Below are positions 11,671 through 51,900 of a DNA stretch of 64,000 nt, piece by piece. The stretch spans positions 1-64,000 of IMG/VR virus record IMGVR_UViG_3300013126_000010; one strand, 5' to 3'. Below the pieces are notes generated by a model that saw only the letters and a program-made list of their open reading frames with translations, was not told the origin of the DNA and ran no database searches. Position 1 is the first letter of the stretch. Every line of letters starts with the position of its first letter. The translations under genes and the position numbers were made by a program. This stretch comes from a virus.

Positions 11671-12051
11671 TTAGATTGCTGACAAGATAATCAATGTTTC
11701 TGTTGAATCGTCTTGTAATGTCCAAGTATATTTGTGTCCAGTGAAATCAACTGCGTGATGTCTGGTTAATTTTTTTATAGCTACCGGACCTGTGCCAATG
11801 ATGATACCAACCAATGCGCCTTCACCAGCTAGTACACCAGTAGTTTTATCTACTAAAGTTACATTTCCAGATTGTGTTTGATCAATGCTTTCTACTTTAA
11901 ATTTTCTAGTAGCACGTTGTTTTAGAATGTATCCGTTGAATTGTCCTGCACCAACATTTGCAATAATTGGTAATGTGTTTCCTGTGTTTAAACCAGTTCC
12001 GGTACCTAAACCTACTTGTCCAAACCATTTTTTGTTAATCGGTCTTCCCAT
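11671..12051 (-). CDS. Small late (probably virion) protein, MGRP-type
   Basis: MGRPINKKWFG...YILKQRATRKFKV; AGGAG RBS; late promoter upstream. Confidence 0.6.
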   Translation of the reverse strand: MGRPINKKWFGQVGLGTGTGLNTGNTLPIIANVGAGQFNGYILKQRATRKFKVESIDQTQSGNVTLVDKTTGVLAGEGALVGIIIGTGPVAIKKLTRHHAVDFTGHKYTWTLQDDSTETLIILSAI

Positions 12052-12115
12052 TTATTTTCTCCTATAATGAGTGTTCTATACTCTACGTGGTGGGTACCAC
12101 ATAAATCTGTAGACA

Positions 12116-12877
12116 TTAGTATTTATCTTTTTGTTTACAATTGTTATTATGGTATCGTTCATAAGCATTCATCGCTATTTCTTTACCACAATAAATGCAC
12201 AATTTAGTTGGGCATTTTCTTCCGCGTTGTGATTCTGCACGTTTTGCAACCATTTCTGGATCTTGTTTTCTTCCTATGGCTTTTTCTCGTATTTTATTTT
12301 TAGTTTCAGTGGATTGTTTTTTACCATACATATGGTTTTTTTCACCAGTTCGTGATTTTGATAAATTTTCTTTCCATTCGTCTGAAAATGGTTTTCGTAT
12401 TCTACCAATCATAGCTTGTTTCTGATTTATGTTTTCCTGTAACGGTTGAATTCGTCCTGTATTAGCAATCTTTATTTTAGCAATAGCTTCAGTGGTTTGC
12501 TTTTTACCATACATTGGGTTGTTAACTCCTGAAACCTTAGCGCTTTGTAATACGGAATATTCTGACTTAATTTTTTCATATACCTTACTAGTGATTTTGG
12601 TGTTATATCTATGTTGTGATTTATTATCAGCTCTCATGATTCTCATTGCATTGATCATTTTATAATATGCAATTGGGTCATTTTTGTGTATTTTGGTTAA
12701 TAACCAATGGCATATAAAATGCTCTCTAGCTGTTAGTCGCACCAAGTTTTCTTTTTTATTAGTACCTCCAAGGCTTTTTGGAATTATGTGATGTACTTCT
12801 ACATACGTTCCATCAATGAGTGTTCTGTTTTTGGCAGCTTCTGTAATCTGTTCATACCATATACTATATTTTGACAT
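12116..12877 (-). CDS. Free-standing HNH homing endonuclease with NUMOD3 repeats and a C-terminal Zn ribbon
   Basis: EVHHIIPKSLGGTNKKENLVRLTAREHFICHWLL; NPMYGKKQT / NHMYGKKQSTETK; CIYC..YHNNNC. Start moved to 12877 (MSKYSIWY) because ATG 12919 lies inside the promoter spacer. Confidence 0.88.
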   Translation of the reverse strand: MSKYSIWYEQITEAAKNRTLIDGTYVEVHHIIPKSLGGTNKKENLVRLTAREHFICHWLLTKIHKNDPIAYYKMINAMRIMRADNKSQHRYNTKITSKVYEKIKSEYSVLQSAKVSGVNNPMYGKKQTTEAIAKIKIANTGRIQPLQENINQKQAMIGRIRKPFSDEWKENLSKSRTGEKNHMYGKKQSTETKNKIREKAIGRKQDPEMVAKRAESQRGRKCPTKLCIYCGKEIAMNAYERYHNNNCKQKDKY

Positions 12878-23164: not shown

Positions 23165-24349
23165 TTATAGTCCAGGTCTTCTTTGTAATCCAGCAAATGG
23201 ATCTGGACCATCAAAACGGGTTTTATATTGCTGAAGTTCCGCATTATTTAGTGTCAAATATCCGTCCTTGTCAGTAACTGGCATACCACTAACTCTCATA
23301 ATATTAGGATTATTTTTGTCAAATGTTATTTTATAAGTTTGGTCTTTATAAAGATCAACTATTTTTTGTTTTTCTGGTGGTAATGGGACAGCTGATGAGT
23401 TTGAGTCGTTATTAGCATTTGTTTTTGCTGGCTGTTCAGCTGATTGGGTAGGTGAACTATTAGTTCTAACAGCTCCTACACCAGTAGCTGCATTTTTGGT
23501 AATAGCATCTTTATTATTAGTGAAAAATGATTGAATCCATCCTCCAGCAGTTTCTGATATTTGGAATGTAAGTTGACCTGATGTACCTAAAAAGGTAGTC
23601 AATGAATCTTTCATGACATTATGAAAGAAATTCTGCCCAGCATCTGATTGTACGAATAAAATGAACAATGGTCCAGTTATACCACCTGATATCATTTTTG
23701 AAAACAGTGCAGCTATTGTAAATGGTGCTCCAGCAACTGAACCTAGTACTTTAGAACCAAGTTTTGCACCAGTAATTGCACCAAATATACCATATTGGCT
23801 TCCCAACGAACCACCAGCAACTGCTCCACCAATAGAACCAACAGCCTTTGGACCTTTTCCTAATAATGACCATATTACATCAGTTTTGGTTAACATTGGA
23901 CCAATTACTAACATACCTTCGCCTATTATTTCAGTTTTTGTTGATTCAAATTTTTGTTTAGCTTCTTCAGCTGACATATTTCCAAATATTTGAGTAGTAG
24001 TATCACCGTTTGAATATTTTTTATATTGTTCTTCTAATTCAGCATATTTTGAATATAACCCATACAAGAATGGAGCACCAACAATAGATTTTAATAATAA
24101 TCCATTTCCTTTTAATGATCCTATGACTGTTTTAGCAACAGCTTTAGCTGGTAATGATGCTATTATTTTAACAGTAGATAATACAGATTTAGATGCCACT
24201 TTTGGTGCGACAGCTGCAGCTTTAGCAGCGGTACCAGTGTTTCCAGCAACTTTACTACCACGGGTAATCAAAGATTTCCCAAAATTATAGATACCTTTCG
24301 CAACATCAGCTGGACCTTCATTTAATGGTTTAAATTCATCAAATCTCAT
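23165..24349 (-). CDS. Late protein with capsid-targeting-like N-terminus and Gly/Ala-rich hydrophobic segments (putative internal/ejection protein)
   Basis: MRFDEFKPLNE; late promoter GATAAATA at 24374-24381; hydrophobic GAVAGGSLG..FGAITGA..APFTIAALF..PLFILFV. Confidence 0.5.
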   Translation of the reverse strand: MRFDEFKPLNEGPADVAKGIYNFGKSLITRGSKVAGNTGTAAKAAAVAPKVASKSVLSTVKIIASLPAKAVAKTVIGSLKGNGLLLKSIVGAPFLYGLYSKYAELEEQYKKYSNGDTTTQIFGNMSAEEAKQKFESTKTEIIGEGMLVIGPMLTKTDVIWSLLGKGPKAVGSIGGAVAGGSLGSQYGIFGAITGAKLGSKVLGSVAGAPFTIAALFSKMISGGITGPLFILFVQSDAGQNFFHNVMKDSLTTFLGTSGQLTFQISETAGGWIQSFFTNNKDAITKNAATGVGAVRTNSSPTQSAEQPAKTNANNDSNSSAVPLPPEKQKIVDLYKDQTYKITFDKNNPNIMRVSGMPVTDKDGYLTLNNAELQQYKTRFDGPDPFAGLQRRPGL

Positions 24350-24389
24350 AATAACATTTCCTATTCATGATGATATTTATCCATTGCAA

Positions 24390-24640
24390 AATTTTAGGCA
24401 TAGTATGCCATTGATAGTTCGATTATAATTATGTTTATATCTGGAGGTCAATAAATTGACCTAATCTTCAATATTTCTCATCATTCGTTCGTTCCTCACT
24501 CATGTGAGAAATATTTTGATTGTAGGGTTTTTTTCTTTTTATTTATTTACATGTATTAGAGAACAATATATGAAATTATTTAAAAATTATTAATGTTTTA
24601 TATTGTTCTTATAATTATGGTTTAAAATACACATTACTAG
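24390..24640. other. AT-rich inverted-repeat cluster (candidate origin / DNA unwinding element)
   Basis: IRs at 24397-24409, 24445-24462, 24470-24515, 24560-24609; 24541-24630 is ~13% GC by hand count; no ORF. Confidence 0.45.
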
Positions 24641-24649
24641 ATTGTGGAG

Positions 24650-25049
24650 ATGGATTGACGCTTGAATGACCAAGCGTCAAAAAAACTTTACTGAGTTGCT
24701 ATCGAAGTTCTAGACGGTAGGAATTTTTAGTGATGTTTCTCGTGATTCGGCTCTTAGCTGTACCGGTACCTACCTAGATTTTTAAGACCCTGCGCGTCAT
24801 TGGGTCATATCAGTCAACAAAACATCTGATGAAATAAATCATCCATGGATATTTCTATCCAACAACCTATACGATTACCGGAATGCTACTCAATGGTGGG
24901 AATGAGACATTTTAAGGCATCCTGAACCAAGATTCAGGGTAGACGGTAAAAGCCCAGCATTAGCGACTGGAATTGAGTACCTTATCACATCAGTAAGGAT
25001 TCCTCGGTGGAATAATGATCGGCCCACTAACCTTATGCTAATTTAGTGT
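24650..25049 (-). ncRNA. Putative structured non-coding RNA (~400 nt), family not recognised
   Basis: No ORF >30 codons found on either strand; ~41% GC; many stems; own promoter at 25054-25087; GAAA tetraloop and G-U closures fit the minus strand. Confidence 0.6.
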
Positions 25050-25053
25050 ATAC

Positions 25054-25087
25054 TTATTATATGTGTCGGGGATATGAAAAAAACAAC
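25054..25087 (-). promoter_or_regulatory. Bipartite promoter GTTGTTTTTTT-N10-ACACATATAATAA driving the putative ncRNA
   Basis: Perfect TATAAT; the same 34-bp architecture recurs at 31125-31158. Confidence 0.65.
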
Positions 25088-25106
25088 AACAGTTGAAAAT
25101 ATTTTT

Positions 25107-25559
25107 TTATAATTGATTGTTATATTCGATTTCTTCAATGGTTGGTTCGTTTACGTTAAATTTAACAGCCCCAATTTGCCCATTATAGAATTTTTTAGTA
25201 CCATCTGCAAGTCGGATTCTCATCACATCTTCCATTACTTGTGCCTTGACTTCTGCATAATATAAACTAGCTTTTGTTTTATGTAATGAACATATTTCAA
25301 ATCTATAATTACCAATGCCTTTTAATGCTATTTGTTCATTAAGTGCCTTACAACTTCCAGTATATTTTTTCCAGTCAGATTCTTTGTAGGTGATTTTTTT
25401 ATTCTTTTTACCTTTTACCGCTACTCTTCTCATCATTTTGAACTGTTTCTTTCCTAGATATTCTTTTCCAGTATCTAATTCAATAATTCTATAAATGAAA
25501 CCGAACCATTCTTCAGGATCAAAATCTTTCTTGACTATCCAATGTCCAGTATCATTCAT
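25107..25559 (-). CDS. Stand-alone GIY-YIG catalytic-domain protein
   Basis: GFIYRI...EYLGKK..MMRR...SDWKKYTGS...YYAE...FYNGQI; no NUMOD/HTH DNA-binding tail. Confidence 0.75.
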   Translation of the reverse strand: MNDTGHWIVKKDFDPEEWFGFIYRIIELDTGKEYLGKKQFKMMRRVAVKGKKNKKITYKESDWKKYTGSCKALNEQIALKGIGNYRFEICSLHKTKASLYYAEVKAQVMEDVMRIRLADGTKKFYNGQIGAVKFNVNEPTIEEIEYNNQL

Positions 25560-26112
25560 TGTCTAATCCTGCTTGTTCTCTGAGGCGTTTGATTGCATCC
25601 TCCATCTCTGCCTCAAATTCTTCTTCGGATCGCGCCAGCGCATCTATACGAGCTACACGGTACACTTCTGGATTAAAGCGAGGATCACGACTGTTTTGGA
25701 ATTGTTTTACTTGAAGACGACGAATATTAATTTGTTTCAATAATCGCATTATCCAGTAATACATACGTTCAGATGATGCAAAACTTCTAGATGTGCACCA
25801 TGATTCCATTTCAATAAAATATCGATGGAGTGCCTGCATTAATAATTGATGATCATCAAGATGTTGAGCAAATGTTTCTTCATTAAAAATAGAAACTCTG
25901 CCATTTTTGAAATATTTTTCTTCATCACCTTTAGGTTTGACATACCCTTCTGGGTATTTACGTGGTCTACCAGATGGGCGTTTGAAATCTAATTTGATGT
26001 CAGTATCTTTTATTTCTTTTTTTGGTCTACCACGAGGACGTTTAGGCTTATCCACTACTGGACGGGTACGTGGTCTACCCATTTTCTTTTTAGGTGTATT
26101 TTCGTCAGACAT
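25552..26112 (-). CDS. AT-hook DNA-binding protein
   Basis: Three GRP cores (KMGRPRT, RPRGRPKK, PSGRPRK) followed by a helical domain. Confidence 0.7.
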   Translation of the reverse strand: MSDENTPKKKMGRPRTRPVVDKPKRPRGRPKKEIKDTDIKLDFKRPSGRPRKYPEGYVKPKGDEEKYFKNGRVSIFNEETFAQHLDDHQLLMQALHRYFIEMESWCTSRSFASSERMYYWIMRLLKQINIRRLQVKQFQNSRDPRFNPEVYRVARIDALARSEEEFEAEMEDAIKRLREQAGLDNE

Positions 26113-28261: not shown

Positions 28262-29265
28262 AATCCGGTATATATAGACAGTAGTAAATTGTTATCGAAT
28301 TTTTCACTTTTGAAATTCAATATTTGATTAGTGATTGTTTGATCAACTGATTCAACTATTAATGATTCATCTTCAGTGATAACATCATTCTTTTTATCAG
28401 CTAATAGGATAAGCTCTCTGATATTATATTCTTCATGTAGCTGTTCTTTTAATTGCATGGATTGTTCATATGATATGTCGATATCAATGGTAGCTTTGAT
28501 GAATTGTTTTGGTTTAATTGCCGATAAGTTGTCGCATAATTCACTTAGTTTTAATGTTCTAAATGTTGGTTGATCTGGCCAAGATATAAATTGTGGTTCT
28601 TTATCCCATTCTAAAATCATCATACCACGATCATCATCCCATGCATCGGAATATGTTAATGGGAATGCATTACCAATATAAGTAATATTACTAGTTGTTT
28701 GTCTTTTATGAAAATGCCCTGAGTAACAGTGTTCAATATTATTGAAATCTTTTGATGAAATTTCCCCATGATCTGGCATTTTAACCAATGAATTCATGTA
28801 AAATCCTGGCAATTCAAAATGACCAAACATGTATTTTCCCTTATATTTTTTTAGATGTTTGGCATCATCTTTTACCAGCCATGGAGCGATGATAACATTA
28901 CCTTCATTAAACCAATCATCAATGATGGTAATGTTATCGATATGTCTAGCCCATCTAACACTGTTTACACTTCTCCTATCTTTAAAGAATAGGTCATGGT
29001 TTCCTGGGATAAAGAACACGTTATCAAATGCTTCCCCTAACATTTCTAAACCACGAATTGCATAATTCATGGTTTTAAGGTTCATGGTATTCCTATTATT
29101 GTGATAGTCACCAAGGAATAGGCAGGTGTCGCATTTATGTTTTTTGGCAGTGTGAATGAACCATTGAATAAAAGAATCGCAGTCTTCATTGTGAAGGTCG
29201 CTATTACCTTTTGCACCAAAATGGATATCCCCAAAAACCGCAGCTTTTTTGAATAAAATTGTCAT
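28258..29265 (-). CDS. gp47: Recombination endonuclease nuclease subunit (gp47 / Mre11 / SbcD-like)
   Basis: GDIHFG, GDYHN, PGNHD, GHFE, SGHFH metallophosphoesterase motifs. Confidence 0.95.
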   Translation of the reverse strand: MTILFKKAAVFGDIHFGAKGNSDLHNEDCDSFIQWFIHTAKKHKCDTCLFLGDYHNNRNTMNLKTMNYAIRGLEMLGEAFDNVFFIPGNHDLFFKDRRSVNSVRWARHIDNITIIDDWFNEGNVIIAPWLVKDDAKHLKKYKGKYMFGHFELPGFYMNSLVKMPDHGEISSKDFNNIEHCYSGHFHKRQTTSNITYIGNAFPLTYSDAWDDDRGMMILEWDKEPQFISWPDQPTFRTLKLSELCDNLSAIKPKQFIKATIDIDISYEQSMQLKEQLHEEYNIRELILLADKKNDVITEDESLIVESVDQTITNQILNFKSEKFDNNLLLSIYTGL

Positions 29266-30023
29266 ATATATGTCGCCTTGTAACCGTTATGAAAAGTATT
29301 ATTTTGTGTTTTTTTTAATATTGTTTGCAACCATTGGCCAGTATGTTGTTCAAAATCTTTGCGGCTCTTGTAACACATAGTGGTTCCATCTGCCATTTCG
29401 ACTAATACTTTTTTACAGTTTAGCGCTGATGCCTTTTTTAAAGCATTTCTAGAATGATCTGCCATCACTGAATGATTTTTCTGCCAGTAGTCTTTGAAAA
29501 ATATTGATTTTTTCTCAATTACTTCAGGATTTGATTTATAATAGTCTCGCAAAGATTCCAACCGTGATGCTATTGTAGCAGGATCGCTACAGTGTGCAAC
29601 CATACGTTGTCTTTCTTCTGGAGTAGTATTAGCCCATTTTTTGATATTATACTCAGTAAATCTATTACTCAGTTCAGATTTAAACTGTATTAGGTCGGAT
29701 TCTGATAAAGTTTCCCATCCATAGGCACCCAACCCATCACCACCTCTACTGCAATTTAATCCATTTTTGTATGAATCATGTAATCCAATGTAGTATATTT
29801 CTGCTTGTGCTAATTCCGCGATATTAGAAAATCCTTGTTCAATTACTTCATATTTACATTGTTCTAGACCATATTCCATCATTTTTTGGTATAATAATTT
29901 ATTATGGTTCTTTTTATATTCTCTGCAGTGTGTTTTCCATCTAGATTTTTTATAAACTGGTTTAGTGTCGAACCCGATGTAAACTTGATTGATAGGAATG
30001 ATTGTGATTTTGTAAATAAACAT
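29262..30023 (-). CDS. Free-standing GIY-YIG (Seg-like) homing endonuclease
   Basis: MFIYKIT...VYIG...RWKTH...AEIYYI...GLNCSRGGDG; C-terminal NUMOD1/HTH-like region. Confidence 0.85.
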   Translation of the reverse strand: MFIYKITIIPINQVYIGFDTKPVYKKSRWKTHCREYKKNHNKLLYQKMMEYGLEQCKYEVIEQGFSNIAELAQAEIYYIGLHDSYKNGLNCSRGGDGLGAYGWETLSESDLIQFKSELSNRFTEYNIKKWANTTPEERQRMVAHCSDPATIASRLESLRDYYKSNPEVIEKKSIFFKDYWQKNHSVMADHSRNALKKASALNCKKVLVEMADGTTMCYKSRKDFEQHTGQWLQTILKKTQNNTFHNGYKATYI

Positions 30024-31121: not shown

Positions 31122-31178
31122 TATTTATTATATGTGTTCAACTTCATAAAAAAACAACTATTTTTAAAAAAATAAATA
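31122..31178. promoter_or_regulatory. Divergent promoter region: bipartite motif 31125-31158 plus overlapping ATAAATA 31122-31128 (minus, gp55); ATAAATA 31172-31178 (plus, baseplate operon)
   Basis: Motifs read directly from the 111-bp intergenic gap. Confidence 0.65.
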
Positions 31179-39400: not shown

Positions 39401-39909
39401 TATATGCATTGATGTCTACTAAATTGAATAAAATAAAATCAATTAGTGATGAAATTGTTTATCATCCAGTCAAATTCAAAATATTATTTGGACAAAAATC
39501 TAATCCAGATGTTCGTGCAACATTTAAAGTTGTCAAAAATTCAGAAATAGTAATTAGTGATAATGATGTAAAATCACAAGTTTTGACTGCTATAAATACA
39601 TTTTTTAATTTAGAGAATTGGGATTTTGGTGATAAATTTCATTTTAGTGAATTACAAACATATGTAATGAATCAAGTATCACCATATGTAGTGAACTTTA
39701 TTATAGTACCAACAATGACAGAATTAACATTTGGTAGTTTGTATGAAATAAATGCAGAAAAAGATGAAATATTTATCAATGGTGCGACAATAGATGATAT
39801 TGAAATAATTAATTCAATAACTGCATCAAAAATAAAAAGTGCAGGACAAATAGCACTTGAAACTACAGGTGTTACAAATATAACAATAACAAGCTCAAGG
39901 AATAACTAA
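36460..39909 (+). CDS. gp6: Baseplate wedge protein (T4 gp6-like)
   Basis: DFDNLR...DFNDYIESSE..ALIDLIAF...RESVLRLAKLLSYNPKR; APATYYTQNRMITGEDY; late promoter CATAAATA at 36428-36435. Confidence 0.88.
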   Translation: MSATDRQNRLLVAEDWKRIYQSYKNADFQSYDFDNLRRIMITYIRENYPEDFNDYIESSEYLALIDLIAFLGQSISFRTDLNARENFLELADRRESVLRLAKLLSYNPKRNVAATGLLKFVSVQTSQNVYDANGRNIAGHTILWNDTSNQNWFDQFIRVINASLSLSSQFGNPAGSATIYGIPTEQYRFQTKSTDVPVYSFSRTIEGKSMNFEVVSTGIRNAADIYEEPPLKGNKLAFLYRNDGKGYGSNNTGFFVQFKQGSLGSGSFTLTQPSTNESVDIDTPNINNNDVWLYQLDHDGNESTLWTEIPALEGNNVIYNSLSKAIKKIFAVSTRTNDRVSLLFSDGTFGDLPTGAFRTYYRSSNGLNYTINTKDMRNVILTLPYISNTNQLETITINMNLVTSVANSVESETNDSIKVNAPATYYTQNRMITGEDYNISPLSATQDVLKIKSINRSSSGISRYFDLVDPTGKYSKTNLFSDDGAIYIENYTDSFRFSYMTKTEIEYVINNKVLGALKSIELRDFYYNNFKKYLTTTDISWVTSTFDTNSYTGLLYYNSAPVAVGSGAQSGSLLRFITPGALLKFKYWDSVYNGYRYKWTTVSYVSGNGTTVENGIGPMYITDDVPAGAVLIQIIPALSTSLSTNLVSSLVDLIYENKPFGLRYDIETTSWKIIYDVDLNKSGDFSLLETGNTSRRHKDSSWLLLFTTDTEYYTVKQRLLRYVFESENQVRFYFNKGSKIYDSRSNIVVKDQIKILGINIQNQGEEPNDRIWEISNQFYGADGYVDNKKIQLSFSDTDDDGIVDNPSIFDEYVTNNEYIVQKGYDTDIGYEYKLSTDVYRYTKLGGVLVGGITEDGFAVVHDVIIVDNDTVDLTEYFIGTDDTHAVELYFYIVSSKVVKKLVWDTSTTKKLILSTERKVYNGKEKVKFQYIHNATNDARIDPGLTNIMDVYVLTKQYDTAYRQWVAGAILDKPLPPSSDSLYALMSTKLNKIKSISDEIVYHPVKFKILFGQKSNPDVRATFKVVKNSEIVISDNDVKSQVLTAINTFFNLENWDFGDKFHFSELQTYVMNQVSPYVVNFIIVPTMTELTFGSLYEINAEKDEIFINGATIDDIEIINSITASKIKSAGQIALETTGVTNITITSSRNN

Positions 39910-42900
39910 TGTCATATAATGATCAAAATGAACAAGGATTGCCAGCGGGTTCTTCACAAAAACGCCGCACTGCTTCTCTATTACCACAAGTATATAGAAC
40001 AGATAGTAATAGGAAATTTTTGCAATCTACGTTGGATCAATTAACACAACCGGGAACAGTTAAAAAAATCAATGGTTACATTGGAAGACAATATTCAAAA
40101 TCCACCACTAGTTCTGATATATTCTTAACAACTACAGATGCTGAACGTAGTTCATATCAATTGGAACCCGCAGCTGTAATCAAAGATGAGCTTGGAAATG
40201 TTAAATTCTACAAAGATTATATAGATCATATTAACCATATAGAACTGTTTAATGGTAATACTAAAAATCATGCACGTATTAATGATGAACAAGTCTACTC
40301 ATGGAATCCACATATAGATTTTGATAAATTTACTAATTATCAAAATTATTACTGGATGCCGTATGGACCAAAGCCTATAAATGTATATGGTGCATTAGGT
40401 GATATTGAAACAACAATGCCAGTATCGATAGTCGATGATGGTGATAATTTTTCATATGTATTTGACAAAGAAATCCAGACACGTAACCCAGAATTGGTAT
40501 TATACAGAGGTCAGACTTATATATTTGACATCATTAGTAAAAACAATCCATTTTATATTAAAACATCAAGATTGACGGGTATAGATGATATCTATGCCGG
40601 TAATATTTTGAATAATGGAATAGAATCAGGTAAATTGACAATTACCATTGACAGAAATACACCAAATATATTGTATTATGTTAGTAAAAATGATGAAAAT
40701 TTGAGCGGTGTTATCCGAATACTAGATTTAGATGAGAATAGTTCGTTAAATGTTGAAACTGATATTTTATATAAATCATCATATAAAATGCAAAATGGAT
40801 ATTATTTGTCCAATGGGATGAAATTAAAATTCCATGGAAACATCACCCCAACAAAATATTCTACTGGATATTGGTATGTGGAAGGTGTTGGTTCAAATAT
40901 ACAATTAATATCAGAAAATGATATTGCTCTTCCTAGCACAATCAGAAACTCTAAATTTGATTATGATCCGTTTGATTCTACTGCATTTGATATGCAGAAA
41001 TCTTTTCCACATGGTAAGGATTATATTGTTATCAACAGAGCATCCATGGATAGGAACGCATGGTCTAGATCGAATAGATGGTTTCACCAAGATGTTATTA
41101 TACAATCTGCTGAATTAAATAATGTATCTCCAGATTTAGATCAGTCATTTAGAGCTATTAGACCTATTATTGAATTCGAACCAAATATAAAGCTTGTTAA
41201 TTTTGGGCATAAGTGTAAATCAGATATTGATTTAATTGATTTTGAAACAAAAGATGTATTTTCTACGATAGAAGGTTCGTTAACACATTACGTAGATGGT
41301 GTGAAACTAGCAAATGGTATGAGAGTTATATTTGCAGCTGATACTGATAGCATGGTTAATGGAAAAATATACAAAGTAGAATATGTAACTATTAATGTTC
41401 CTGGTAGAACAGTAGGTTTTTCTATAGCAGGCGTAAATATTGGTGATAATACTATTTCATTTACTGAATCACATGGGTTCCAAGATGGTATCCAAATAAC
41501 ATATGTGAATAATGGCTTTCCAGATTTGGGAGGATTAATTAATAGAAACATTTATTTTGTTAAAGTAATATCAGAAAAAGTAATTAAGCTATTTAAAGAT
41601 GTTGGGTTACAGATTCCAGTATATATTTCATCGTTGGGCACAAATAGTTCATTAGTCCAACAAAGTTTTGAAATCTACTTAGGAAGACGTAGACAAATAA
41701 TGTTAATTGAGGAAGAAGATACAAACCCACTAACAAATGAGATTGTATTAGTAAAGAATGGTAAATCTAATATTGGTAAAATATTTTGGTATAATGGTAC
41801 CAATTGGACTCAAGGACAAGAAAAAAATAGTACAAATCAATCTCCGCTATTCGACGTATTTGATTCAAATAAACAAAGTTATATGGATGCAACAGTATAT
41901 CCATCATCTACATTTATTGGTACAAAACTATTTTCTTATAAAAGTGGAACAGGTCTCATTGATACAGAATTAGGGTTTCCATTAACATATAGAAGCATTA
42001 ATAACATTGGTGATATTTCATTTGATTTTAATTTATTGAGTGATTCATTTAATTACACTACTGGTAGTAAATTGATATCTCATAATATTTCAGATGGGTA
42101 CTTACAACGAATAAAAACTCTTGAAGACGTGGACTATATTAATGGATGGGATTTATGTTCGGTATCTGATATACAAGGTATTATTAGAATATACAAAAAC
42201 ACCACTATAACCAGCGATTTTTTAATTGATGTTTTTGACACTATACCTGCAGATAATGATTTAAGGGTGAAAGTTTACAAAAATGGAGTTAAGTTATCAA
42301 ATTCTGAATATTCTGTTGAAAGTAAAAATTATAAAAAATATGTTGTATTATCTACTCCTGCATTAGCGTCTGATATTATAACATTGAAATTGTATTCTAC
42401 ACGATATAAGAATGAAAATGGTTTTTATGAAATACCAATTAGTTTACAAAATAATCCATTGAATAATGACATTACTCAGTTTACTTTGGGACAAGTTGTT
42501 GATCATGTTAATGGTATAACAGAAAATATACCTGGGTTTGATGGGATTTTTCCAGGTTCTAGTAACTTGCGTGATCTAGCCGCTGTTCATCAATATGGTA
42601 CTAGATTTGTTCAGCATTTATGCCCAATGAATTTTAGTTTGTACCACCTTGGGTCAAAATCAGCTAATTTGGTAGAGGCTATTGTTGCTGCGGGGGATGA
42701 TTATGGAAAATTCAAACGTGCATTCTTGACAGTTGCAAATCAATTAGGAATACATACCGAACCTAAAGAACATGTTGATGCCATATTAGCAGAAATTACG
42801 AAAAATAAAGCTACATCATCGTCTTATTATTTGTCAGATATGATTGCATATACTGGCACTGTTAAAAATGAGTACATAGTGCTAGATGCTAGGACTACTG

Positions 42901-45900
42901 CATACCCATTATCAAGAACATTTTCAATGAATGTGTTGTCGAATAATGCTGTATTAGTATACTTGAATGGTGTTCAACTATTGCATGGTACTGATTATGT
43001 ATTTTATGATGATTTTGTTGATATTTCCACACAACTTGCTGAAGATGATGTAATTACAGTATTTGAGTATGACTCTACGGACGGTTCATGTTGTCCACCA
43101 ACACCAACTAAATTAGGGTTATATCCAAAATTTGAACCTAAAATTTATATTGATAATACTTATTTAGAACCAACAAAAGTAATTCAAGGGCACGATGGAA
43201 GTATCACAGTGGCATTTAATGACTACAGGGATGATTTAATATTAGAATTAGAAAAACGCATTTATAATAATATTAAAATTAGTTACAATGCGTCGATGTT
43301 TGATATTAATGATTATATCCCAGGATATAATAGAACAACTGATTATACTCGTGAAGAAGTGAATGAAATAATTAGCCAGTCATTCTATCAATGGACCGGT
43401 TTGGTAATTGTAGATTTCACAAAAAATCAAGCATTTGATAGAGAAAATCCATTTACATATAACTATTTTGAAAATTATGCACCGAATGGAACAAATATAC
43501 CATCATATTGGAGAGGTATATTTAACTGGATGTATGATACAGATAGACCACATCTGTGCCCATGGGAAATGCTAGGGTTTTCAGAAATACCAGTATGGTG
43601 GGAGTCAACGTATGGTCCTGCTCCGTATACTAGTAATAATGAAATATTATGGGATGATATTAAACAGGGGATAATTAGAGAACCTGGACGACCTGTAGTG
43701 GTTAATGAAAAGTATATTAGATCCGTATTAGAATTTGGGTTACCTGTTGATGAAAATGGGTCGTTGGTCGATCCTATTCAATCAGGGATTGCATTAGGTG
43801 TGGTAAACATGTCTGGTAATTCTCATTTTATAATTGGTGATGGTAGCCCCGTAGAAACAACATGGAAAAAGTCTAGTTATTTTCCCTTTGCATTATTACG
43901 TGCTATATTGGTAATGAAACCAAATGATGTAATAGGTAAATGTTTTGATAGAAGTAGAATCCATAAAAATATTGTTGGACAATATGTATATACTACTGGT
44001 AAAAGAATTATATTGCAGGATTTGGTTATACCATCTACTTATACAAGTGATAATCGTGTACAAACATCCGGTTTGGTAAATTATTTGGTTGAATTTATTA
44101 ATAGTGAAGTCCAAGTAAGATTAACAGATTATATTTCTGATTTACAATTATTAACTAATAATATCAGTTCAAAGATGGGAGGATTTAGTTCAAAAGAAAA
44201 ATATAGATTATTGATGGACTCTAAATCACCAACAACTCCAAGTGGAAATTTTGTACCAGAGGAAAATTATCAGATATTTCTGAATACATCATCAGTGGTG
44301 AGAAAAGCAGTATATAGTGGTGTAGTTATAACCAAGACTTCGGAAGGATTTGAAGTAAAAGGATATAGTATTGATACTCCGTATTTTAATGTGAACCCAT
44401 TTTTGGATTCTGGTAGAACTATCCGAATCGGTGGGATATCAGAAAGCTTCGTTGAATGGACACCAAGTACATATTATGTGGCAGGTAAAGTAATTGACAA
44501 TAATGGAAGGTATTATAGAGTTAATACTACCCATCGTTCAGGTGATGCATTCGAACCAAGTTATTTTAACGTCATGGCTGAATTACCAGTATATGGTGGC
44601 GCAGAAGTTACTCTACGTAAATCGTGGGACACCAGAATATCTACTGTGGTGAATTATGGTACATTGTTAGATACTGTTCAAGATGTTGCTGACTTTTTAC
44701 AAGGATATGGATCATATTTGGAAAATCAAGGATTTATATTTGATAGTTATTCATCAGATATTCAAAATGTTTACAACTGGCAGATGATGGTCAAGGAATT
44801 TCTATTTTGGACAACACAAAATTGGCCAGAAAATTCTGTTATATCATTAAGCCCATCTGCTGAAAAATTAAAATTAAAAATACCATATACTGTTGTAAAT
44901 GATATAAATGATCCATTCTTTAAGTACGAAGTTATGGATGTTAGTGGTAAGCCAATTGATTATACAAAATTGTCCACTTACCGAGATGGGTCCGAGTTTA
45001 CATTAACTAGTACAGATGCGAACATCGGTGTCTATGGTGCTACGTTATATGCGGTTCAAAAAGAGCATGTGTTAATATTAGATAACAAAACCATATTTAA
45101 TGATGTTATATATGATTTAGAGCCTGGATACCGTCAAGAACGAATCAAAGTATTAGGCTATATCTCTCGTAATTGGGATGGTGGTTTTGATATACCAGGA
45201 TTTATCTTTGATCAGGCAAACGTGTATGATTGGGAGCCATGGACAGATTATCATTTTGGTGACACTGTAAAACATAAAGAGTTTTATTATAGTGCAAAGT
45301 ATTTTATACCAGGGACAGTAGAGTTCAATGTATATGATTGGGTAAAACAATCAGACAAACCAGTTTCTAGGATGCTACCTAATTGGGATTATAAAGCTGA
45401 ACAGTTTACTGATTTTTATGATTTAGATACTGATAATTTTGATTCTCAGCAACAAAAAATGGCACAACATTTAATTGGGTATCAGAAACGTCAGTATTTG
45501 GAAAATATTATCAAAGATGACGTGAGCCAATATAAATTTTATCAAGGAATGATTATTGAGAAAGGTACTGCAAATGTGTTCAGTAAACTGTTTGACGTAT
45601 TAAGTGCTACTGATAAAAACAGTGTTGATTTTGATGAAGAATGGGCAATTAGAGTTGGTGAGTATGGTGCAGTAGATGTATTCGATACGGTTGAAATACA
45701 ACTAGATGAGACTAAATTTGTAATGAACCCACAAGGTATTGAGTTTGTACCAGCGATTATTCCTGACATTCAAGATCATATCTACAGGTTTACCAAGGAT
45801 TCTATCTACATAAATCCTAAAGACGTAGATGATAATACAGTTGTTAAATGGAAAGAAAAAATACAATCTGGTACATTACGTACTCCTGGATATGTTAGAT

Positions 45901-48900
45901 ATGATGATGTTGATTATAGTATTGATAAATTAGAAGATTTATTAGACACTGATGTTAATTTATATTCAGAGCATCAGATATTCTGGTGTGCGTTTAATGA
46001 TAAATTACATGATTCTAATTTTAGATATTGGGATGTATATAGTTTTGAAAAGTATATAGGAACATGGACCTCGATTTGTGAAGAATCACAGGTTATGAAA
46101 ATATCATTAGATCCGCTGTCACTTATTAATATATCAGCTGGCGATGTTATTGGTATTAAATCAGGCAATTTTACTAAATTCGTTATAGCTGATATTAATA
46201 CTACTAGTGATACATTAACTATCGTTGATAATAATTTTTCTATTAATGATACATTATCAAACATTGAAATATATGTTTTTAATTCATTGAGATATGGTAA
46301 CCAGTTATCTCAGAGTGACTTTGTATCACAAATGAGCCAATGGAATCCATCAGTAAAATATATATGGGGTGATTGGGTACAAAATGGTGTGACACAAGGT
46401 TGGGAAGTATACAAAAATAATGGATCATTATTTGATAATACTATTTTGTATTCTGTTGATGATATTGTAGTTTACAATAATTCATATTATATTGTTATTG
46501 CAGAAAGTATAGGACATTTACCAACTGATACATCTTATTTTGAATTATATGTTGGTGATAAATGGTCCATTCATCATTCAAGTGAATGGACCATAGACTC
46601 ATCTATTATCAAAAAGGCGTATTTGTATAATAAAGATACGAGTGAGTTAGTCAGATATATTGATTTAGTAGATGTTGTCAATGGTAAGATACCTGGGATA
46701 GCTGATCAAGAAATAAAATATAAAATGTATAATGACCCAGCGGTATATTCCGTTGGAACAGCAAACGTTAAAGTATTACCAGAAGCTAATTGGGGGGCAA
46801 CTCAAGTAGGACAGCTGTGGTGGGATTTGACACGTGCCAAATTCATTGTAAGCAACGACAATGAAATTGAATATAGAACTAATACATGGAATCAATTGTA
46901 TAAATCTGCTAGTATTGATATATTTGAATGGGTTGAATCATCTATCCTCCCAGCAGATTGGGATGATTTAGATGGTACAGAAGAAGGATTGGCGCTTGGA
47001 ATAAGTGGAAGATCAAAATATGGAAATTCTTCTTACTCAGTTGTCACAAAGTTTGATAATGTAACAGGGATCTATTACAACACCTATTATTTTTGGGTTA
47101 AGGGAAAACAAATTACACCAAACGTGGGATTTAGAAATATAGATGCATACAATGTTGCAGCTATCATTGGTAGCCCAGAAAATACTGGATATCCTTGTAT
47201 ATCAGTAACCAGTACGTCATCATTTATATTAACAAATATAGAACAATACCTGGACCAAACTAACATCATATTAGTTATTGAATACTGGAATGTAGATAAA
47301 GTAGACGCTAATTATCATACAGAATGGAAATTGGTGAGTGAAAACATTAATACGGAGTTACCAACGCACATTGAGCAAAAGTGGATTGATAGTTTAATTG
47401 GTTATGATTATAATGAGAATCGTATACCGGATTACTCACTAAAACCAAAACAACGGTATGGTATTGAAAATAAACCACGTCAGTCAATGTTTATTAATAG
47501 GTTGGAAGCACTTAAACAGGTTATTGAACGAACTAATAATGTATTAAAGACTAATTTAATAGCAGATGATTTTGATTTGTCGCCGTTAATGAAATATGAT
47601 TTGCCACCATCATCGGTGTCTGGTAAATGGGATGTAACGGTTGATTACGACACAGAACTTCAGTATATTGGAACGGCATTATTAAAACAAGCAGAAATAT
47701 CCTTATATATTGTTGATGGTAGAATAGAGGCTGTTAATATAACAGATCCTGGATATGGCTATGTAAACCCACCAGAAGTTGTTATTGCTGGTAATAATGG
47801 ATGTAATAATCAAGCGAAAATTATTTTAACATTGGATAACAACGGGTCGGTATCAACTGCTGAAATCATTGATCATGGTGAAAATTACACTGACGAAACT
47901 GTTGCGACTATTAGACGATTTGCAGTATTGGTTCTAAGTGATAGCCAGAATGAAGACAGATGGGTTATTAGACATTGGTATGAAAATTATAAAAGCTGGT
48001 TGGTACGTCAGGTACGAAAATATGACGTAAGAAAGTGTTGGTATTATATTGACTGGTACGCTACTGGTTATAATCAATTTACTAGTATAAACCATGTAGT
48101 TGATAATACTTCACAATTATATACCAGTTCACATAATATTGGTGATATTGTTAAAGTAAAAAACATTGGAACTGGTGGATGGTTATTATTACAAAAGTAT
48201 AATGAGTTAGTTACTACAGATTATACTAAAATATATAATGTTATTGGTAGGGAAAATGGAACTATCCAATTCTCTGATATATTGTATGATTATGATACTA
48301 ATATATTTCCAGGAACTATCCAAAATCCAGACCCATATGCATTCAATTTACGAAATGAATTGAGAGTTATATTGTCGGCAATAAAAGATAATTTATTAGT
48401 TGATAATTTACGTATTGAATATTTGAAATTATTTTTTGCATCAGTTCGTTATATACTATCTGAACAAATATACACTGACTGGATATTTAAATCATCATTT
48501 ATTAAAGTTACGCATAATGTTGGAGAATTAAAACAAAAAGTAACGTATAATAGTGACAACTTGGAAAGTTTTGAAGATTATATAAATGAAATTAAACCAT
48601 ATAGAACCAAAATTCGTGAATATGTAAGCGTGTATGATGGTTATGATAACTCTAATTCTAATATAACTGATTTTGATTTTCCATCGGTGGTTACATCAGA
48701 CAATATTTACGCCACGATCAATAATTATGTAAGTGAAGATGGAACATTAGTAGTAGATGATAACTATTATACTAATATTAGTCCATGGAAATCATGGTAT
48801 GATAATATAGGATTTAAAGTATCATCGATTAATATCATAGATGGCGGGTCAGGCTATACCAAAGCACCAATAGTAAGATTTATTGGTGGTTATGGAAAGA

Positions 48901-51900
48901 ACGCAGAAGCGACTGCATTTATTTCAAGAGGAAAAGTTAACCGAATAGTATTGGACAATCCTGGGACTGGGTATTTAAGTGCACCAATTATTGTATTGGA
49001 TGGTGGTGTATCATCAGCCGGTGTTACCGCACGTGCAAGTGTAACAATAGAATCAGAAGCTGCTAGGTCAACCAAGATCACCATGAAGTATGATAGGGTT
49101 GCTAAAGGCTATTCTATAACTGATTTATTATATAACGAAACCTTTACTGGAACAGGTACACGACAACAGTTCAAATTAATATTCGCGCCAGATTTGAGAG
49201 TTAATACAGCATCAGTATATGTTGATGGTGTAGAACAATTGCATAATAGCTATTATGTTGCAGTAAAAACTGACACATCAATGGGATATACAAGGTATTA
49301 TGGTACCTTAACATTGGTGACAGCACCTAGAAAAAATAGTGTTATTGAAATAACTTATTTAAAAAATATTGAATACTTGAATGCCAATGATAGAATACAG
49401 TTTAATTACAACCCATCATATGGTAATCCAGGGAAAGATTTATCATTATTAATGAAAGGTATTGATTATGGTGGTGTAATAGTAACTGGTGGTGGTTTTC
49501 AATTTGCGAATGGATGGGACAGTATACCATGGGATAGTGATGAATGGGATGCATTTGACCCAGGATATGATAATTGGTCAATATCTGTACCAAGGGATAC
49601 CGGTATAATTCAATTGCCATATACTCCAGATGTTGGCGAAAAAGTTAATGTATATGTTAATAATATCAGAGTTGATGAACCAACTTTTGTAGCACCACAT
49701 GAAAACATCATTATGGGAACAATTGTTGGTGATGGATTAAAAAATTCTTTCACTATTCCTGGAGATATTCCATCAACAATATATGACATTGGTCAACAAT
49801 ATAATAATAATTTGGTAGTATCAGATTACACTGATAGAAATATAATTATTATTGGTGGTGGTTCGGTCCAAATACCAGCTGGTCAAACAGTAATGGTTGA
49901 CACTTTTTCAAAATATAGTACTACATCAATTCGTTATGATATTGCATATTCTAATGCAGGGGTGTACGGGTATATTGAATTAATATTGATTAATAATCCA
50001 TATACTGCATCAAGTGTCAATGGTAACACAATAGTGTATGGTGGTGGCGGTGCAACCCCTGAGATCGATCTTGGTTTCATGAGATTAACAGTTGAGCAAG
50101 ATCCTTTATCATCGAGTGATATATTATTAAATGTTCATGCAACCAATACAGTTATCGTAACTTACACAAAGTGGGATTTTTCCAAAGGTGGTATTTATAA
50201 TGAAGTGACGAGTAGAATAAATGACCCATTGTTTGAAATTTCAAGTGACAGTTTAACCATCTATGAAATGGAGGAAACAGTTATTGACGAATTTGATAAA
50301 AATGAATTTTATAGTGGATGTTATTATATTCAATTAGTAAGCGACTCGTTTGTCCAATTATTAGAAGTTGAGTTGGTGCACAATGGTGTGGATATTAATA
50401 TCGATATTATATCCACAGATGGTGATATTATTTTAGATACTATGCAAAATGGTGATTCATGGATATCAAGTTATATTGAAAACGATAATATATTATTGTC
50501 ATTAAAAACCATATATGATAAAGTTACCGTAGTTTATTCTAGAGTAATGTTACCATCACTGACAATTAGAGAAGTTGATATAACCGATGTAAGAAGATTA
50601 TCGTCAGATGGTGAATATGCAATAATACCATTTCAATATCAATCGACTAGTACAACACGTGTATTAGTCGATTCATTTGATTTTGGTCATTATGCATACT
50701 GTGATTTTCAAATACAGTTAATTGGATCAGTGGCTACCCAAGTATATGATATTGATGTATTTATTGATCCAAATATAATAGGTACATTTGAGTTTGTGGT
50801 AAAAAACAATACATATGTTGGTAGGGAATGTGGGTACTTTACTGGATCATTGAATGGAGATTCTTTTGAATTATATTTTACACCATATGAGGCGAATGTT
50901 CAGATTACTGGAGTAAAACGGTTATTGGGTAGACCTGGGGTACCTAACATTAATCAACAAGATGAACTTGGATTAGACAATCTATTTAATATAATGTTTA
51001 TAAAACAAACATCTGATGGTGGTGTATCAACTAACCCATATATTGATGAATATGAATTGGGGTTATATGATTATGATGTGCGATTAATTGGTGGAATATT
51101 CGAGGATAGTACGGTTATTGGATATAAACCAGATGATGTTATCACAGATGGGGATGGTTTTATTACACCATCAACCAGTTATGCACCTGAAGAATTATTA
51201 CCTGGGCATATGGCTGATTCTGTTGCTATTAAGGTTTATCAATTACCAACTAGTGGCTCACCAAAAGTAATTAATAATAGATACATACCAGATGGTACAA
51301 CTACTGTATATAGCTACGGACAGGATGTACCAACTGGTAATCATGTGATAGTAACACAGCGCCGTAGTGTGTCTGGAAAAATTAAGAATGTTACTATACC
51401 GTCATCTGATTATGTGCTTGATACGTCGAATCATACAGTAGTATTTAATGTTGCACCAACTGGTGATGCTATAACCGTATCTAGTTTTGGATTTAATTCA
51501 TATATGTTACTGGATACAGACATTATAACTATCAACAAGGCCACTGATGTTATTGTAACCAATGCTCCGTGGATGTTAGGAAATGTGAAAGCAACAGTAC
51601 TTGTCAATGGCAACACATACCAATATGAATTGTTTAGAACGACTGAAAAAGAGCAAAAAATAGAAGTGACTGGGATTAGATTTGGAGCTAAATTACCAAA
51701 GAATACTATTGTTCAGTATATGATTGAACAAAGTGATACTGGTAATATTAATACCAGTACTACTAGTGTAATGGATATCGATACCACTCAATCATATACC
51801 GGACCTGCGGATTATGTTATGAGTGTATCAGCAATATCACCAAACGTGTTGGTGTTGATAGATGATGTACTGTTAAGTCCTGGCAAAGTAGTCACCAAAG

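What the first reader, a model, noticed from the sequence alone, without database searches (positions are those of the whole stretch)
24650..25049. Unrecognised ~400-nt structured non-coding RNA with its own promoter
This is the largest non-coding gap in the window. I found no ORF over 30 codons, and GC is ~41% (hand count of 24661-25020). Minus-strand helices: ATTCC/GGAAT, CCTTA/TAAGG, CCAG/CTGG, CCTGAA/TTCAGG (24921-38), TGGATA-GAAA-TATCCA (24846-61), GATGA/TCATC, ATCAG/CTGAT, GACCC/GGGTC, a bulged TCTAGGTAGG/CCTACC-GTC-TAGA, and a 10-11-bp terminal TTGACGCTTG/CAAGCGTCAA (24655-80). The GNRA loop and several closing G-U pairs work only on the minus strand, which matches the promoter direction (predicted TSS ~25048). 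A 9-mer TACCGTCTA occurs twice (24711-19, 24940-48), and GTACCGGTAC is self-complementary. I could not match it to tRNA, tmRNA, RNase P or intron cores.
Basis: partly seen in the sequence, partly recalled or inferred. Interest (0 to 1): 0.8.

Follow-up and report, generated by a model that had tools for sequence, protein, structure and literature searches.

The report
Divergent Polynucleobacter-1 phage RNA gene
The gene-free stretch behind a small nuclease gene of this uncultured T4-like freshwater phage encodes a real folded non-coding RNA of about 420 bases. It is a very divergent, full-length relative of the catalogued but unexplained Polynucleobacter-1 RNA, and its function is still unknown.

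Summary
Window ~25049 to ~24627 (minus strand) is a conserved, non-coding, highly structured RNA gene with promoter-like sequences directly upstream. Support comes from comparison, not folding energy: the minus-strand z-score is only -0.55.

I found a second copy in the same phage genome and five relatives in other contigs. In the 5' domain, 20 of 31 base pairs show compensatory changes, and G-U pairs outnumber A-C mismatches 17 to 3, which fixes the minus strand.

It is not wholly unrecognised. Rfam finds nothing here even at E<=10. However, a model built only from this RNA type hits two relatives in the same intervals where Rfam's Polynucleobacter-1 (RF01718) hits. All six RF01718 helices are present.

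The gene context matches Weinberg 2010: downstream of a PSSM2_218-like (SegE-type GIY-YIG) gene. The uncatalogued 3' two-thirds is shared with Polynucleobacter genomes. It includes two boxes, AACUC-AGNNN and AAUCU-AGNNN, whose NNN changes in step.

The RNA does not need the nuclease. Copy B and all bacterial copies examined lack it, and many nuclease homologues lack the RNA. Function is unknown.

This scan reached the same identification on at least eight other phage genomes. Verdict: new variant of a known kind.

The parts
25056..25061 (-). -10 hexamer TATAAT of the RNA's promoter; predicted start near 25049
   Evidence: TATAAT/TATAGT sits at the same place in copies A, C and F. The upstream GTTGTTTTTTT-N10-ACACATATAATAA motif is shared with the region upstream of the gp55-like gene (31125-31158). 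Copies H, I and B have full TTGCAx-16/17-TATAAT promoters. No expression data.
24627..25049 (-). The whole RNA gene (about 423 nt): 5' domain 25049-24873, 3' domain 24872-24627
   Evidence: It is 86.4-86.5% identical to contig C, while the flanking genes are 44-77% and the spacers 51-69%. No conserved ORF. An nhmmer profile finds copies A and B only in the genome.
25006..25028 (-). P1 hairpin (A)GUGG...CCAC(C)
   Evidence: 3 of 5 pairs change on both sides across relatives. An A.C to G.U switch occurs at the base pair.
24975..25005 (-). P2 hairpin GAG..CCUUA...UAAGG..CUC
   Evidence: helix 3: 100% paired and 7 of 9 pairs change on both sides (CCUUA, CCACG, CCUAG and CCUCU versions).
24953..24971 (-). 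P3 hairpin UCCAGU...GCUGGG
   Evidence: helix 4: 5 of 6 pairs change on both sides.
24944..24949 (-). P4 5' strand UUACCG, pairing with 24875-24880
   Evidence: Pairs as UUACCG/CGGUAA in A, C, F and H, ACAUUG/CAAUGU in I, and AUAUCA/UGAUAU in B. The MFE of every segment gives the same three-way junction.
24921..24938 (-). P5 hairpin after the conserved junction GUCUACCC and before GGAUGCC
   Evidence: The stem sequence differs in every copy (helix 5).
24889..24906 (-). P6 hairpin CUCA...UGAG
   Evidence: CUAUC/GAUAG in F, CUCUG/CAGAG in H, AUCCC/GGGAU in I.
24875..24880 (-). P4 3' strand CGGUAA
   Evidence: See the P4 5' strand.
24862..24869 (-). Long-range helix, 5' strand UAGGUUGU, pairing with 24638-24645
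   Evidence: Present in the MFE of the 3' region of A, C and F. An equivalent closing helix appears in J, P21 and P19. It is unvarying within this subtype; two double changes against J were read by hand.
24846..24861 (-). P7 hairpin with a GNRA loop (GAAA)
   Evidence: The loop is GAAA, GUAA or GUGA in A, C, F and H. The stem has double changes.
24827..24843 (-). P8 hairpin GAUGA...UCAUC
   Evidence: Double changes and length variation (helix 3).
24786..24806 (-). P9 hairpin GACCC-AAUGACGCGCA-GGGUC, followed by UUAAAAAUC
   Evidence: The 38-nt block is identical in A and B and has one change in C. The stem is unvarying, so it is untested by covariation.
24716..24774 (-). P10: GGUAGG/CCUACC enclosing UAC-CGG...CCG
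   Evidence: Unvarying in this subtype. By my reading of the sequences, J and K have the same layout: GAGG-UAN-CGG-loop-CCG-CCUC.
24686..24698 (-). Twin box 1: CAACUC-AGUAA-AG
   Evidence: AACUC|AGNNN is present in all full-length relatives, including six Polynucleobacter loci.
24655..24680 (-). P11 terminal hairpin UUGACGCUUG...CAAGCGUCAA
   Evidence: 97.5% paired. Three one-sided changes all give U.G on the minus strand and would be A.C on the plus strand (helix 7).
24632..24645 (-). Long-range helix 3' strand (ACAAUCUA) overlapping twin box 2 (AAUCU-AGUAA-UG)
25107..25559 (-). Upstream neighbour: 150-aa SegE-type GIY-YIG protein gene (PSSM2_218 homologue)
   Evidence: PF19835, E 6.9e-33. 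35% identity to P-SSM2 PSSM2_218, E 5e-22.

Best explanation
Window ~25049 to ~24627 (minus strand) is the gene of a stand-alone, folded non-coding RNA of about 420 nt. It is probably transcribed from the promoter-like sequence directly upstream.

It is a very divergent, full-length member of the mobile-element-borne RNA family whose 5' third is catalogued as the Polynucleobacter-1 motif (RF01718).

Structure. A 5' domain holds six helices (P1-P3, then a P4/P5/P6 three-way junction). A 3' domain is closed by a long-range helix and contains P7-P11.

Two short boxes, AACUC-AGUAA and AAUCU-AGUAA, flank the terminal hairpin.

Inferred, not shown. The RNA acts in trans as a compact RNA or RNA-protein particle. 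The two identical boxes are read by one twice-used or two-fold partner. Its position behind the small GIY-YIG gene reflects inherited linkage, with the RNA gene riding along with a nuclease cassette, rather than RNA-guided cutting.
For: Shown by comparison:
- Copies. There is a second copy in the same genome (G000 162272-162455, 87% identical, and 162650-162779, 68%; 162067-162455, 85.7% over 405 nt). Relatives lie in L004/L006, L009, L013, L014/L015 and L017.
- Conservation. The RNA is 86% identical to C, while the neighbouring genes are 44-77%. No conserved ORF.
- 5' domain pairing: 92.9% of cells paired against 73.8% in shuffles and 35-49% when slid. 20 of 31 pairs have double changes.
- P4/P5/P6 junction. 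Independent MFE folds recover it in 11 of 12 segments from three subtypes.
- Strand: 17 G-U against 3 A-C pairs; wobbles in P11; GNRA loops.
- Promoters.

Family link:
- Model R1, built only from this subtype, hits L026/L027 (E 9e-5) and L013 (E 0.013). These are the intervals where RF01718 scores 39.6 bits (above its cut-off of 37) and 33.5 bits.
- Weinberg 2010 places the motif downstream of PSSM2_218-like genes. PSSM2_218 is a homologue of the window's nuclease.
- The 3' boxes AACUCAG and AAUCUAG occur at the same places in six Polynucleobacter loci.
- NNN is identical in both boxes of every RNA: UAA, GAU, UGA or CGA.

Mobile and accessory: RF01718 is found in 13-14 of 121 Polynucleobacter genomes, in 1-2 copies, and next to integrase genes.
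Against: - No transcript evidence.
- Minus-strand folding energy is not better than shuffles.
- Rfam's own model does not reach this RNA even at E<=10.
- The conserved P2-P3 linker of RF01718 is different here.
- Within this subtype P9, P10 and the long-range helix never vary, so they are untested by covariation.
- No terminator was found.
- No reader of the twin boxes was found inside the RNA, so the trans-acting particle idea is inference only.
- The alignment used for one search was fitted to the model.
Confidence: 0.8

Rival explanations
1. The RNA is the working partner (guide or scaffold) of the adjacent minimal GIY-YIG nuclease, which has no DNA-binding domain. This would resemble the omega-RNAs of IscB/TnpB.
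For: The RNA lies directly downstream of the SegE-type gene in contigs spanning 64-85% nuclease identity and three RNA subtypes. Weinberg 2010 reports the same linkage. The 150-aa protein is essentially the catalytic domain only.
Against: - Copy B has no such gene nearby.
- No PF19835 match in five RNA-bearing Polynucleobacter genomes, with a positive control on the phage.
- Close nuclease homologues are followed directly by a protein gene, with no RNA (L010 and the P0013 contig).
- L028 has only a ~330-nt gap with no R1 or RF01718 hit.
- In P-SSM2, PSSM2_218 abuts the next gene.
- The protein family occurs in 831 phage records.
Confidence: 0.08
2. The transcript primes DNA replication. A promoter plus a folded RNA runs into an AT-rich unwinding tract (24541-24630), like T4 oriF/oriG or ColE1 RNA II.
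For: The promoter motif is shared with the gp55-like gene, so it may be of a middle-type class. A very AT-rich tract follows each phage copy. The genome has two copies.
Against: - The same RNA sits in Polynucleobacter chromosomes between ordinary genes.
- Selection acts on junction nucleotides, GNRA loops and the twin boxes rather than on a hybrid-forming 3' end.
- Intergenic DNA of this phage is AT-rich everywhere.
- There is no strand switch at this site.
Confidence: 0.05
3. It is a cis-acting element: a 3' UTR of the nuclease mRNA or a leader of the downstream gene.
For: It is on the same strand as both neighbours. Rfam and Weinberg left cis-regulation open. No clear terminator separates it from the nuclease gene.
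Against: - Every copy has promoter-like sequence upstream.
- Copy B follows a ClpS gene; by my reading of the sequence a terminator-like hairpin lies between them.
- Downstream genes are unrelated between copies A and B, are on the opposite strand in L026, and vary in bacteria.
- A strong promoter (TTGACC-18-TATAAT, 24451-24422) lies between the RNA and the 394-aa gene.
Confidence: 0.04
4. It is not an RNA at all: a DNA-level repeat or recombination cassette, or a decayed gene.
For: The A/B similarity extends into a promoter and stem-loop block (24413-24575) that also follows the RNA in L013. That block resembles the mobile promoter/stem-loop cassettes of T4-type phages (from my own knowledge of Arbiol et al. 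2010).
Against: - Compensatory changes keep the helices.
- The G-U bias is strand-specific.
- No frame is conserved.
- Hairpins keep their place while their sequence is replaced.
Confidence: 0.03

Closest known systems
Polynucleobacter-1 RNA motif (Rfam RF01718; Weinberg et al. 2010, Genome Biol 11:R31, PMC2864571)
   Same: The six helices come in the same order. The junction words ACUAYCC and GGAYG match. The position downstream of a PSSM2_218-like gene matches. The freshwater, mobile-element setting matches. The 3' flank of the Polynucleobacter loci carries the same AACUCAG and AAUCUAG boxes.
   Different: Rfam's model gives no hit here. The P2-P3 linker differs (GGUACUCAAU instead of GGGAUGGAAAU). 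The Rfam motif covers only about 141 of ~420-480 nt. In 2010 no example was known from a purified phage; this one lies in a T4-like viral contig, in two copies.
HEARO / omega-RNA of IscB, and TnpB reRNA
   Same: A large structured RNA encoded next to a small nuclease gene in mobile elements. HEARO was found in the same 2010 survey.
   Different: Co-occurrence is not obligatory in either direction here, and no variable guide segment could be identified. Rfam finds no match.
GOLLD and ROOL large RNAs of phages and prophages
   Same: Large, ornate RNAs of unknown function carried by phages.
   Different: No sequence or model match. The architecture and neighbours differ.
T4 seg/mob free-standing homing endonucleases beside conserved genes (for example segB among the tRNA genes; from my own knowledge)
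   Same: A GIY-YIG gene sits next to a conserved RNA gene, so linkage by co-conversion is plausible.
   Different: This 148-150-aa family lacks a DNA-binding domain and is widely conserved in cyanophages and FelixO1-like phages. That is unlike a sporadic selfish gene.

Membership tests
Polynucleobacter-1 RNA (Rfam RF01718) | Score at or above Rfam's gathering threshold (37 bits) with the curated model | tested here: not met
   No RF01718 hit in 24300-25150 even at E<=10, and none for copy B at E<=1. Relatives L026/L027 score 39.6 bits and L013 scores 33.5 bits.
Polynucleobacter-1 RNA (Rfam RF01718) | Helices P1, P2 and P3, followed by a P4-closed three-way junction with hairpins P5 and P6 | tested here: met
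   Model R1 aligns P1, P2, P3 and P5 of this subtype to the same helices in L013 and L026. The P4/P5/P6 junction is recovered by separate MFE folds in A, C, F, H, I, B, J, K and three Polynucleobacter loci.
Polynucleobacter-1 RNA (Rfam RF01718) | Conserved junction words ACUAYCC before P5 and GGAYG after it | tested here: met
   GUCUACCC ... GGAUGCC at 24939-24913.
Polynucleobacter-1 RNA (Rfam RF01718) | Conserved linker GGGAUGGAAAU between P2 and P3 | tested here: not met
   This subtype has GGUACUCAAU at that place.
Polynucleobacter-1 RNA (Rfam RF01718) | Homology traceable through intermediate sequences | tested here: met
   R1, built from six sequences of this subtype only, hits L026/L027 2058-2174 (27.4 bits, E 9.2e-5) and L013 958-1083 (18.9 bits, E 0.013). 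Both overlap the RF01718 hits. R1 did not reach the Polynucleobacter loci themselves.
Polynucleobacter-1 RNA (Rfam RF01718) | Location downstream of a GOS11034 / PSSM2_218-like gene (Weinberg 2010 supplement) | tested here: met
   Copy A follows the SegE-type gene at 25107-25559. PSSM2_218 is its homologue (E 5e-22). This is not met for copy B.
Full-length (extended) Polynucleobacter-1 RNA as seen in Polynucleobacter genomes | A 3' region with AACUC-AGNNN, a hairpin, then AAUCU-AGNNN, with NNN the same in both boxes | tested here: met
   A, B and C have UAA/UAA; F has GAU/GAU; J has UGA/UGA; six bacterial loci have CGA/CGA.
Known large RNAs (group I/II introns, RNase P, tmRNA, GOLLD, ROOL, HEARO, OLE, 6S) | Match to the Rfam covariance model | tested here: not met
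   There is no hit in the gap at gathering threshold or at E<=10 apart from chance-level lncRNA/miRNA matches. ARAGORN finds no tRNA or tmRNA.
Nuclease guide RNA (OMEGA-like) | Obligatory co-occurrence of the RNA and its nuclease | tested here: not met
   (see the rival explanations).
RNA-primed phage origin (T4 oriF/oriG type) | A persistent R-loop at an unwinding element, used as a primer | not testable with these tools
   Only the promoter-like motif and the AT-rich tract can be seen.

The most novel reading that the evidence does not exclude
The twin AGNNN boxes are a small programmable specificity code that the RNA presents to DNA- or RNA-acting enzymes of mobile elements. The candidate enzymes are the domain-poor GIY-YIG nuclease in phages and the 188-aa catalytic-domain-only tyrosine recombinase that follows the RNA in four of seven Polynucleobacter loci. 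If so, this family would be a new kind of RNA cofactor for mobile-element enzymes.
Probability: 0.07. Interest if true: 0.9.

Novelty: new variant of a known kind. Interest (0 to 1): 0.55.

Why it matters
Large, intricately folded bacterial and phage RNAs have repeatedly turned out to be ribozymes or cores of RNA-protein machines.

This work makes four points:
- An orphan Rfam motif is only the first third of a ~420-480-nt RNA.
- The family lives in T4-like phage genomes as well as in bacterial islands.
- Subtypes exist that the Rfam model cannot see.
- The RNA carries a two-box feature that changes in step and calls for a two-fold reader.

These give a concrete handle for experiments: box swaps and pull-downs. 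They also argue for rebuilding the Rfam family at full length.

Tried and rejected
- Rfam at gathering threshold and at E<=10: nothing in the gap.
- ARAGORN: no tRNA or tmRNA.
- blastn of the gap against 50,697 phage records: no match.
- Exact-block scans of IMG/VR and JGI metagenomes: only contig C plus GC-rich chance hits L005, L007 and L008.
- The search for related loci with the 394-aa neighbour: nothing.
- An nhmmer profile of this subtype does not reach J, K or the bacterial loci significantly; there are only co-linear hits at E 2-10.
- Helices I first considered and then dropped:
  - ACUGA/UCAGU closing the 3' domain, which is broken in C and F.
  - ACUCAAU/AUUGAGU and AUUGAGUAGC/GCAACUCAGU, which are replaced by the covarying P6 hairpin.
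  - A small G(C)AUU/AAUC hairpin, which is replaced by P4.
  - UAAGG/CCUUA (25035-31 with 24911-15). It is unvarying, would be a pseudoknot with P4 and is absent in J and K, so it is left open.
- I searched inside the RNAs for a segment complementary to the twin boxes. No consistent partner was found.
- In J and the Polynucleobacter type the post-P4 strand can pair with box 2, and by hand also with box 1. This does not explain UAA versus GAU within this subtype.
- DUF6641 is not found in the phage.
- I did not build a covariance model of the 3' domain.

Full report
**Setting.** The window is the first 64 kb of a 184.7-kb IMG/VR virus record. It is a T4-like myovirus: it has a gp55-like late sigma factor, gp46/47-like SbcCD and a baseplate hub. 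The finding lies in a 757-nt gene-free gap, 24350-25106. On one side is a 394-aa ORF (23165-24349, minus strand). On the other is a 150-aa SegE-type GIY-YIG gene (25107-25559, minus strand; PF19835, E 6.9e-33).

**Checking the observation.** GC is 38-40.5% across 24600-25100, against 24-33% around it. One 45-codon GTG frame exists (24890-25027, minus strand), but no frame is shared among homologues. Folding energy gives no support for the minus strand: z is -0.55, against -2.26 for the plus strand. Rfam finds nothing in the gap at gathering threshold or at E<=10, and ARAGORN finds nothing.

**Relatives.** The genome holds a second copy, B. It lies at about G000 162067-162780 on the same strand. 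It is 85.7% identical over 405 nt and 68% over 133 nt, with an unalignable middle that carries about 100 extra nt. Its neighbours are ClpS, Hsp20 and an unrelated 269-aa ORF, and no nuclease gene is nearby.

Neighbour-protein searches gave further copies behind orthologous nuclease genes:
- C: L004/L006.
- F: L009.
- H: L014/L015, 5' 300 nt only.
- I: L017, 5' 240 nt only.
- J: L013, a very divergent RNA at the same site.
- K: L026/L027, behind a nuclease that is 64% identical.

The RNA is absent behind close nuclease homologues in L010 and the P0013 contig, where a protein gene follows directly. In L028 only a ~330-nt gap follows the nuclease gene, with no R1 or RF01718 hit.

Against contig C the RNA is 86% identical, while the flanking genes are 73-77% and 44% and the spacers 51-69%.

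**Structure and strand.** I built a covariance model, R1, from the six 5' domains of this subtype. I then realigned all hits to it.
- 92.9% of cells are paired, against 73.8% in shuffles and 35-49% when partners are slid.
- 20 of 31 pairs have changes on both sides.
- This alignment is fitted to the model, which favours the structure.
- G-U pairs outnumber A-C pairs 17 to 3.
- The three one-sided changes in the terminal hairpin all give U.G on the minus strand.
- The P7 loop is GAAA, GUAA or GUGA.

Together these fix the minus strand as the RNA strand.

It reads UUACCG/CGGUAA in A, C, F and H, ACAUUG/CAAUGU in I, and AUAUCA/UGAUAU in B. Separate MFE folds of the P4-to-P4 segment give the same three-way junction in 11 of 12 sequences.

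In the 3' domain, P7 and P8 covary. P9, P10 and the long-range helix never vary within this subtype. The long-range helix (24862-69 with 24638-45) appears in the MFE of A, C and F. An equivalent closing helix appears in J, P21 and P19.

**Promoters.** Copies A and C share GTTGTTTTTTT-N10-CACATATA(A/G)TAA with the region upstream of the gp55-like gene. F has a TATAAT at the same place. H, I and B have TTGCAx-16/17-TATAAT. The -10 hexamer of copy A is at 25061-25056, which puts the start near 25049. No terminator was found.

**Identity.** RF01718 (Polynucleobacter-1) scores 33.5 bits on J and 39.6 bits on K; its cut-off is 37. R1, built without J or K, hits the same intervals at E 0.013 and E 9e-5.

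The helix map is one to one:
- P1 = GUGG/CCAC.
- P2 = CCUUA/UAAGG.
- P3 = UCCAGU/GCUGGG.
- P4, P5 and P6 as described above.

The junction words ACUAYCC and GGAYG are kept. The P2-P3 linker is not.

The Weinberg 2010 supplement says that most examples lie downstream of GOS11034 genes resembling PSSM2_218, and that none was found in a purified phage. PSSM2_218 is a 145-aa homologue of the window's nuclease (E 5e-22).

**The uncatalogued 3' two-thirds.** Six Polynucleobacter-group loci carry RF01718 at 70-104 bits. About 200 nt further on they carry AAAGAACUCAGCGAAAGUCC, then a hairpin, then GAAUCUAGCGAAA. Every full-length RNA has AACUC-AGNNN and AAUCU-AGNNN flanking the terminal hairpin. NNN is identical in the two boxes of each RNA but differs between lineages:
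- UAA in A, B and C.
- GAU in F.
- UGA in J.
- CGA in the bacterial loci.

I found no consistent complementary partner inside the RNA.

**Distribution.**
- RF01718 occurs in 13-14 of 121 Polynucleobacter genomes, in one or two copies.
- A DUF6641 gene lies divergently upstream in 7 of 7 loci.
- A 188-aa tyrosine recombinase lies downstream in 4 of 7 loci.
- No SegE-type gene is found in five of these genomes, and the positive control on the phage works.

The RNA is therefore an accessory, mobile-element-borne gene that does not depend on the nuclease. The nuclease family also occurs widely without the RNA.

**Mechanism.** What is shown is a conserved, compactly folded RNA gene with two domains. 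What is inferred:
- It is transcribed on its own from the promoter-like sequence upstream.
- It acts in trans.
- Its twin boxes are read by a two-fold partner.
- Its linkage to the nuclease gene is inherited or the result of hitchhiking.

The rival readings (nuclease guide, RNA-primed origin, cis element, DNA repeat) are weighed in their own sections.

**Earlier notes of this scan.** At least eight earlier follow-ups on other phage genomes reached the same identification and described the twin boxes. I took the twin-box lead from them and verified it here. New in this window:
- This subtype is invisible to Rfam.
- There are two paralogous copies in one phage genome, one without the nuclease.
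- The bacterial gene context and the sporadic distribution.

Noticed in passing
window 12049-12126 (-): Rfam freshwater-2 RNA (RF02980), 54.4 bits against a cut-off of 49.9. It lies between two minus-strand ORFs.
   Followed up: no
window 24413-24575; G000 about 162067-162215; L013 1500-1611: A promoter and stem-loop block lies just downstream of the RNA. It contains the hairpin GGTCAATAAATTGACC overlapping a TTGACC-18-TATAAT promoter for the next gene, plus the hairpin CTCACTCATGTGAG. It is nearly identical beside copies A and B and recurs beside the divergent RNA in L013. It resembles the mobile promoter/stem-loop cassettes described for T4-type phages.
   Followed up: partly
window 25054-25087 and 31125-31158 (-): The motif GTTGTTTTTTT-N10-ACACATATAATAA is shared by the RNA's upstream region and the region upstream of the gp55-like late sigma gene. 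It may be a phage-specific promoter class.
   Followed up: partly
window 25552-26112 and 25107-25559 (-): The 186-aa ORF and the SegE-type gene overlap by 8 nt. They are neighbours in about ten related contigs, but not in L026 or P-SSM2.
   Followed up: partly
window 29262-30023 (-): A second, larger GIY-YIG homing-endonuclease-like gene (253 aa) lies between the SbcD-like gene and the late sigma gene.
   Followed up: no
window 39909-53489 (+): A single 4526-aa ORF among the structural genes.
   Followed up: no
G000 138095-138247 (-), outside the window: A weak second SegE_GIY-YIG match (19.6 bits; 31.1 with its neighbours) inside a 273-aa frame.
   Followed up: no
L020, L030 (Polynucleobacter sp. 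MWH-HuK1), L018-L024: In the bacteria the RNA always has a DUF6641 gene divergently upstream. It often has a 188-aa catalytic-domain-only tyrosine recombinase downstream. One genome has two RNA copies 18 kb apart on the same strand.
   Followed up: partly
L002 2100-2160 (G000 about 162870-162930): A terminator-like hairpin with a T-run follows the ClpS gene. It is followed by TTGCAC-16-TATAAT about 90 nt before copy B, and by two copies of the palindrome TTAGCTAA that can pair.
   Followed up: no
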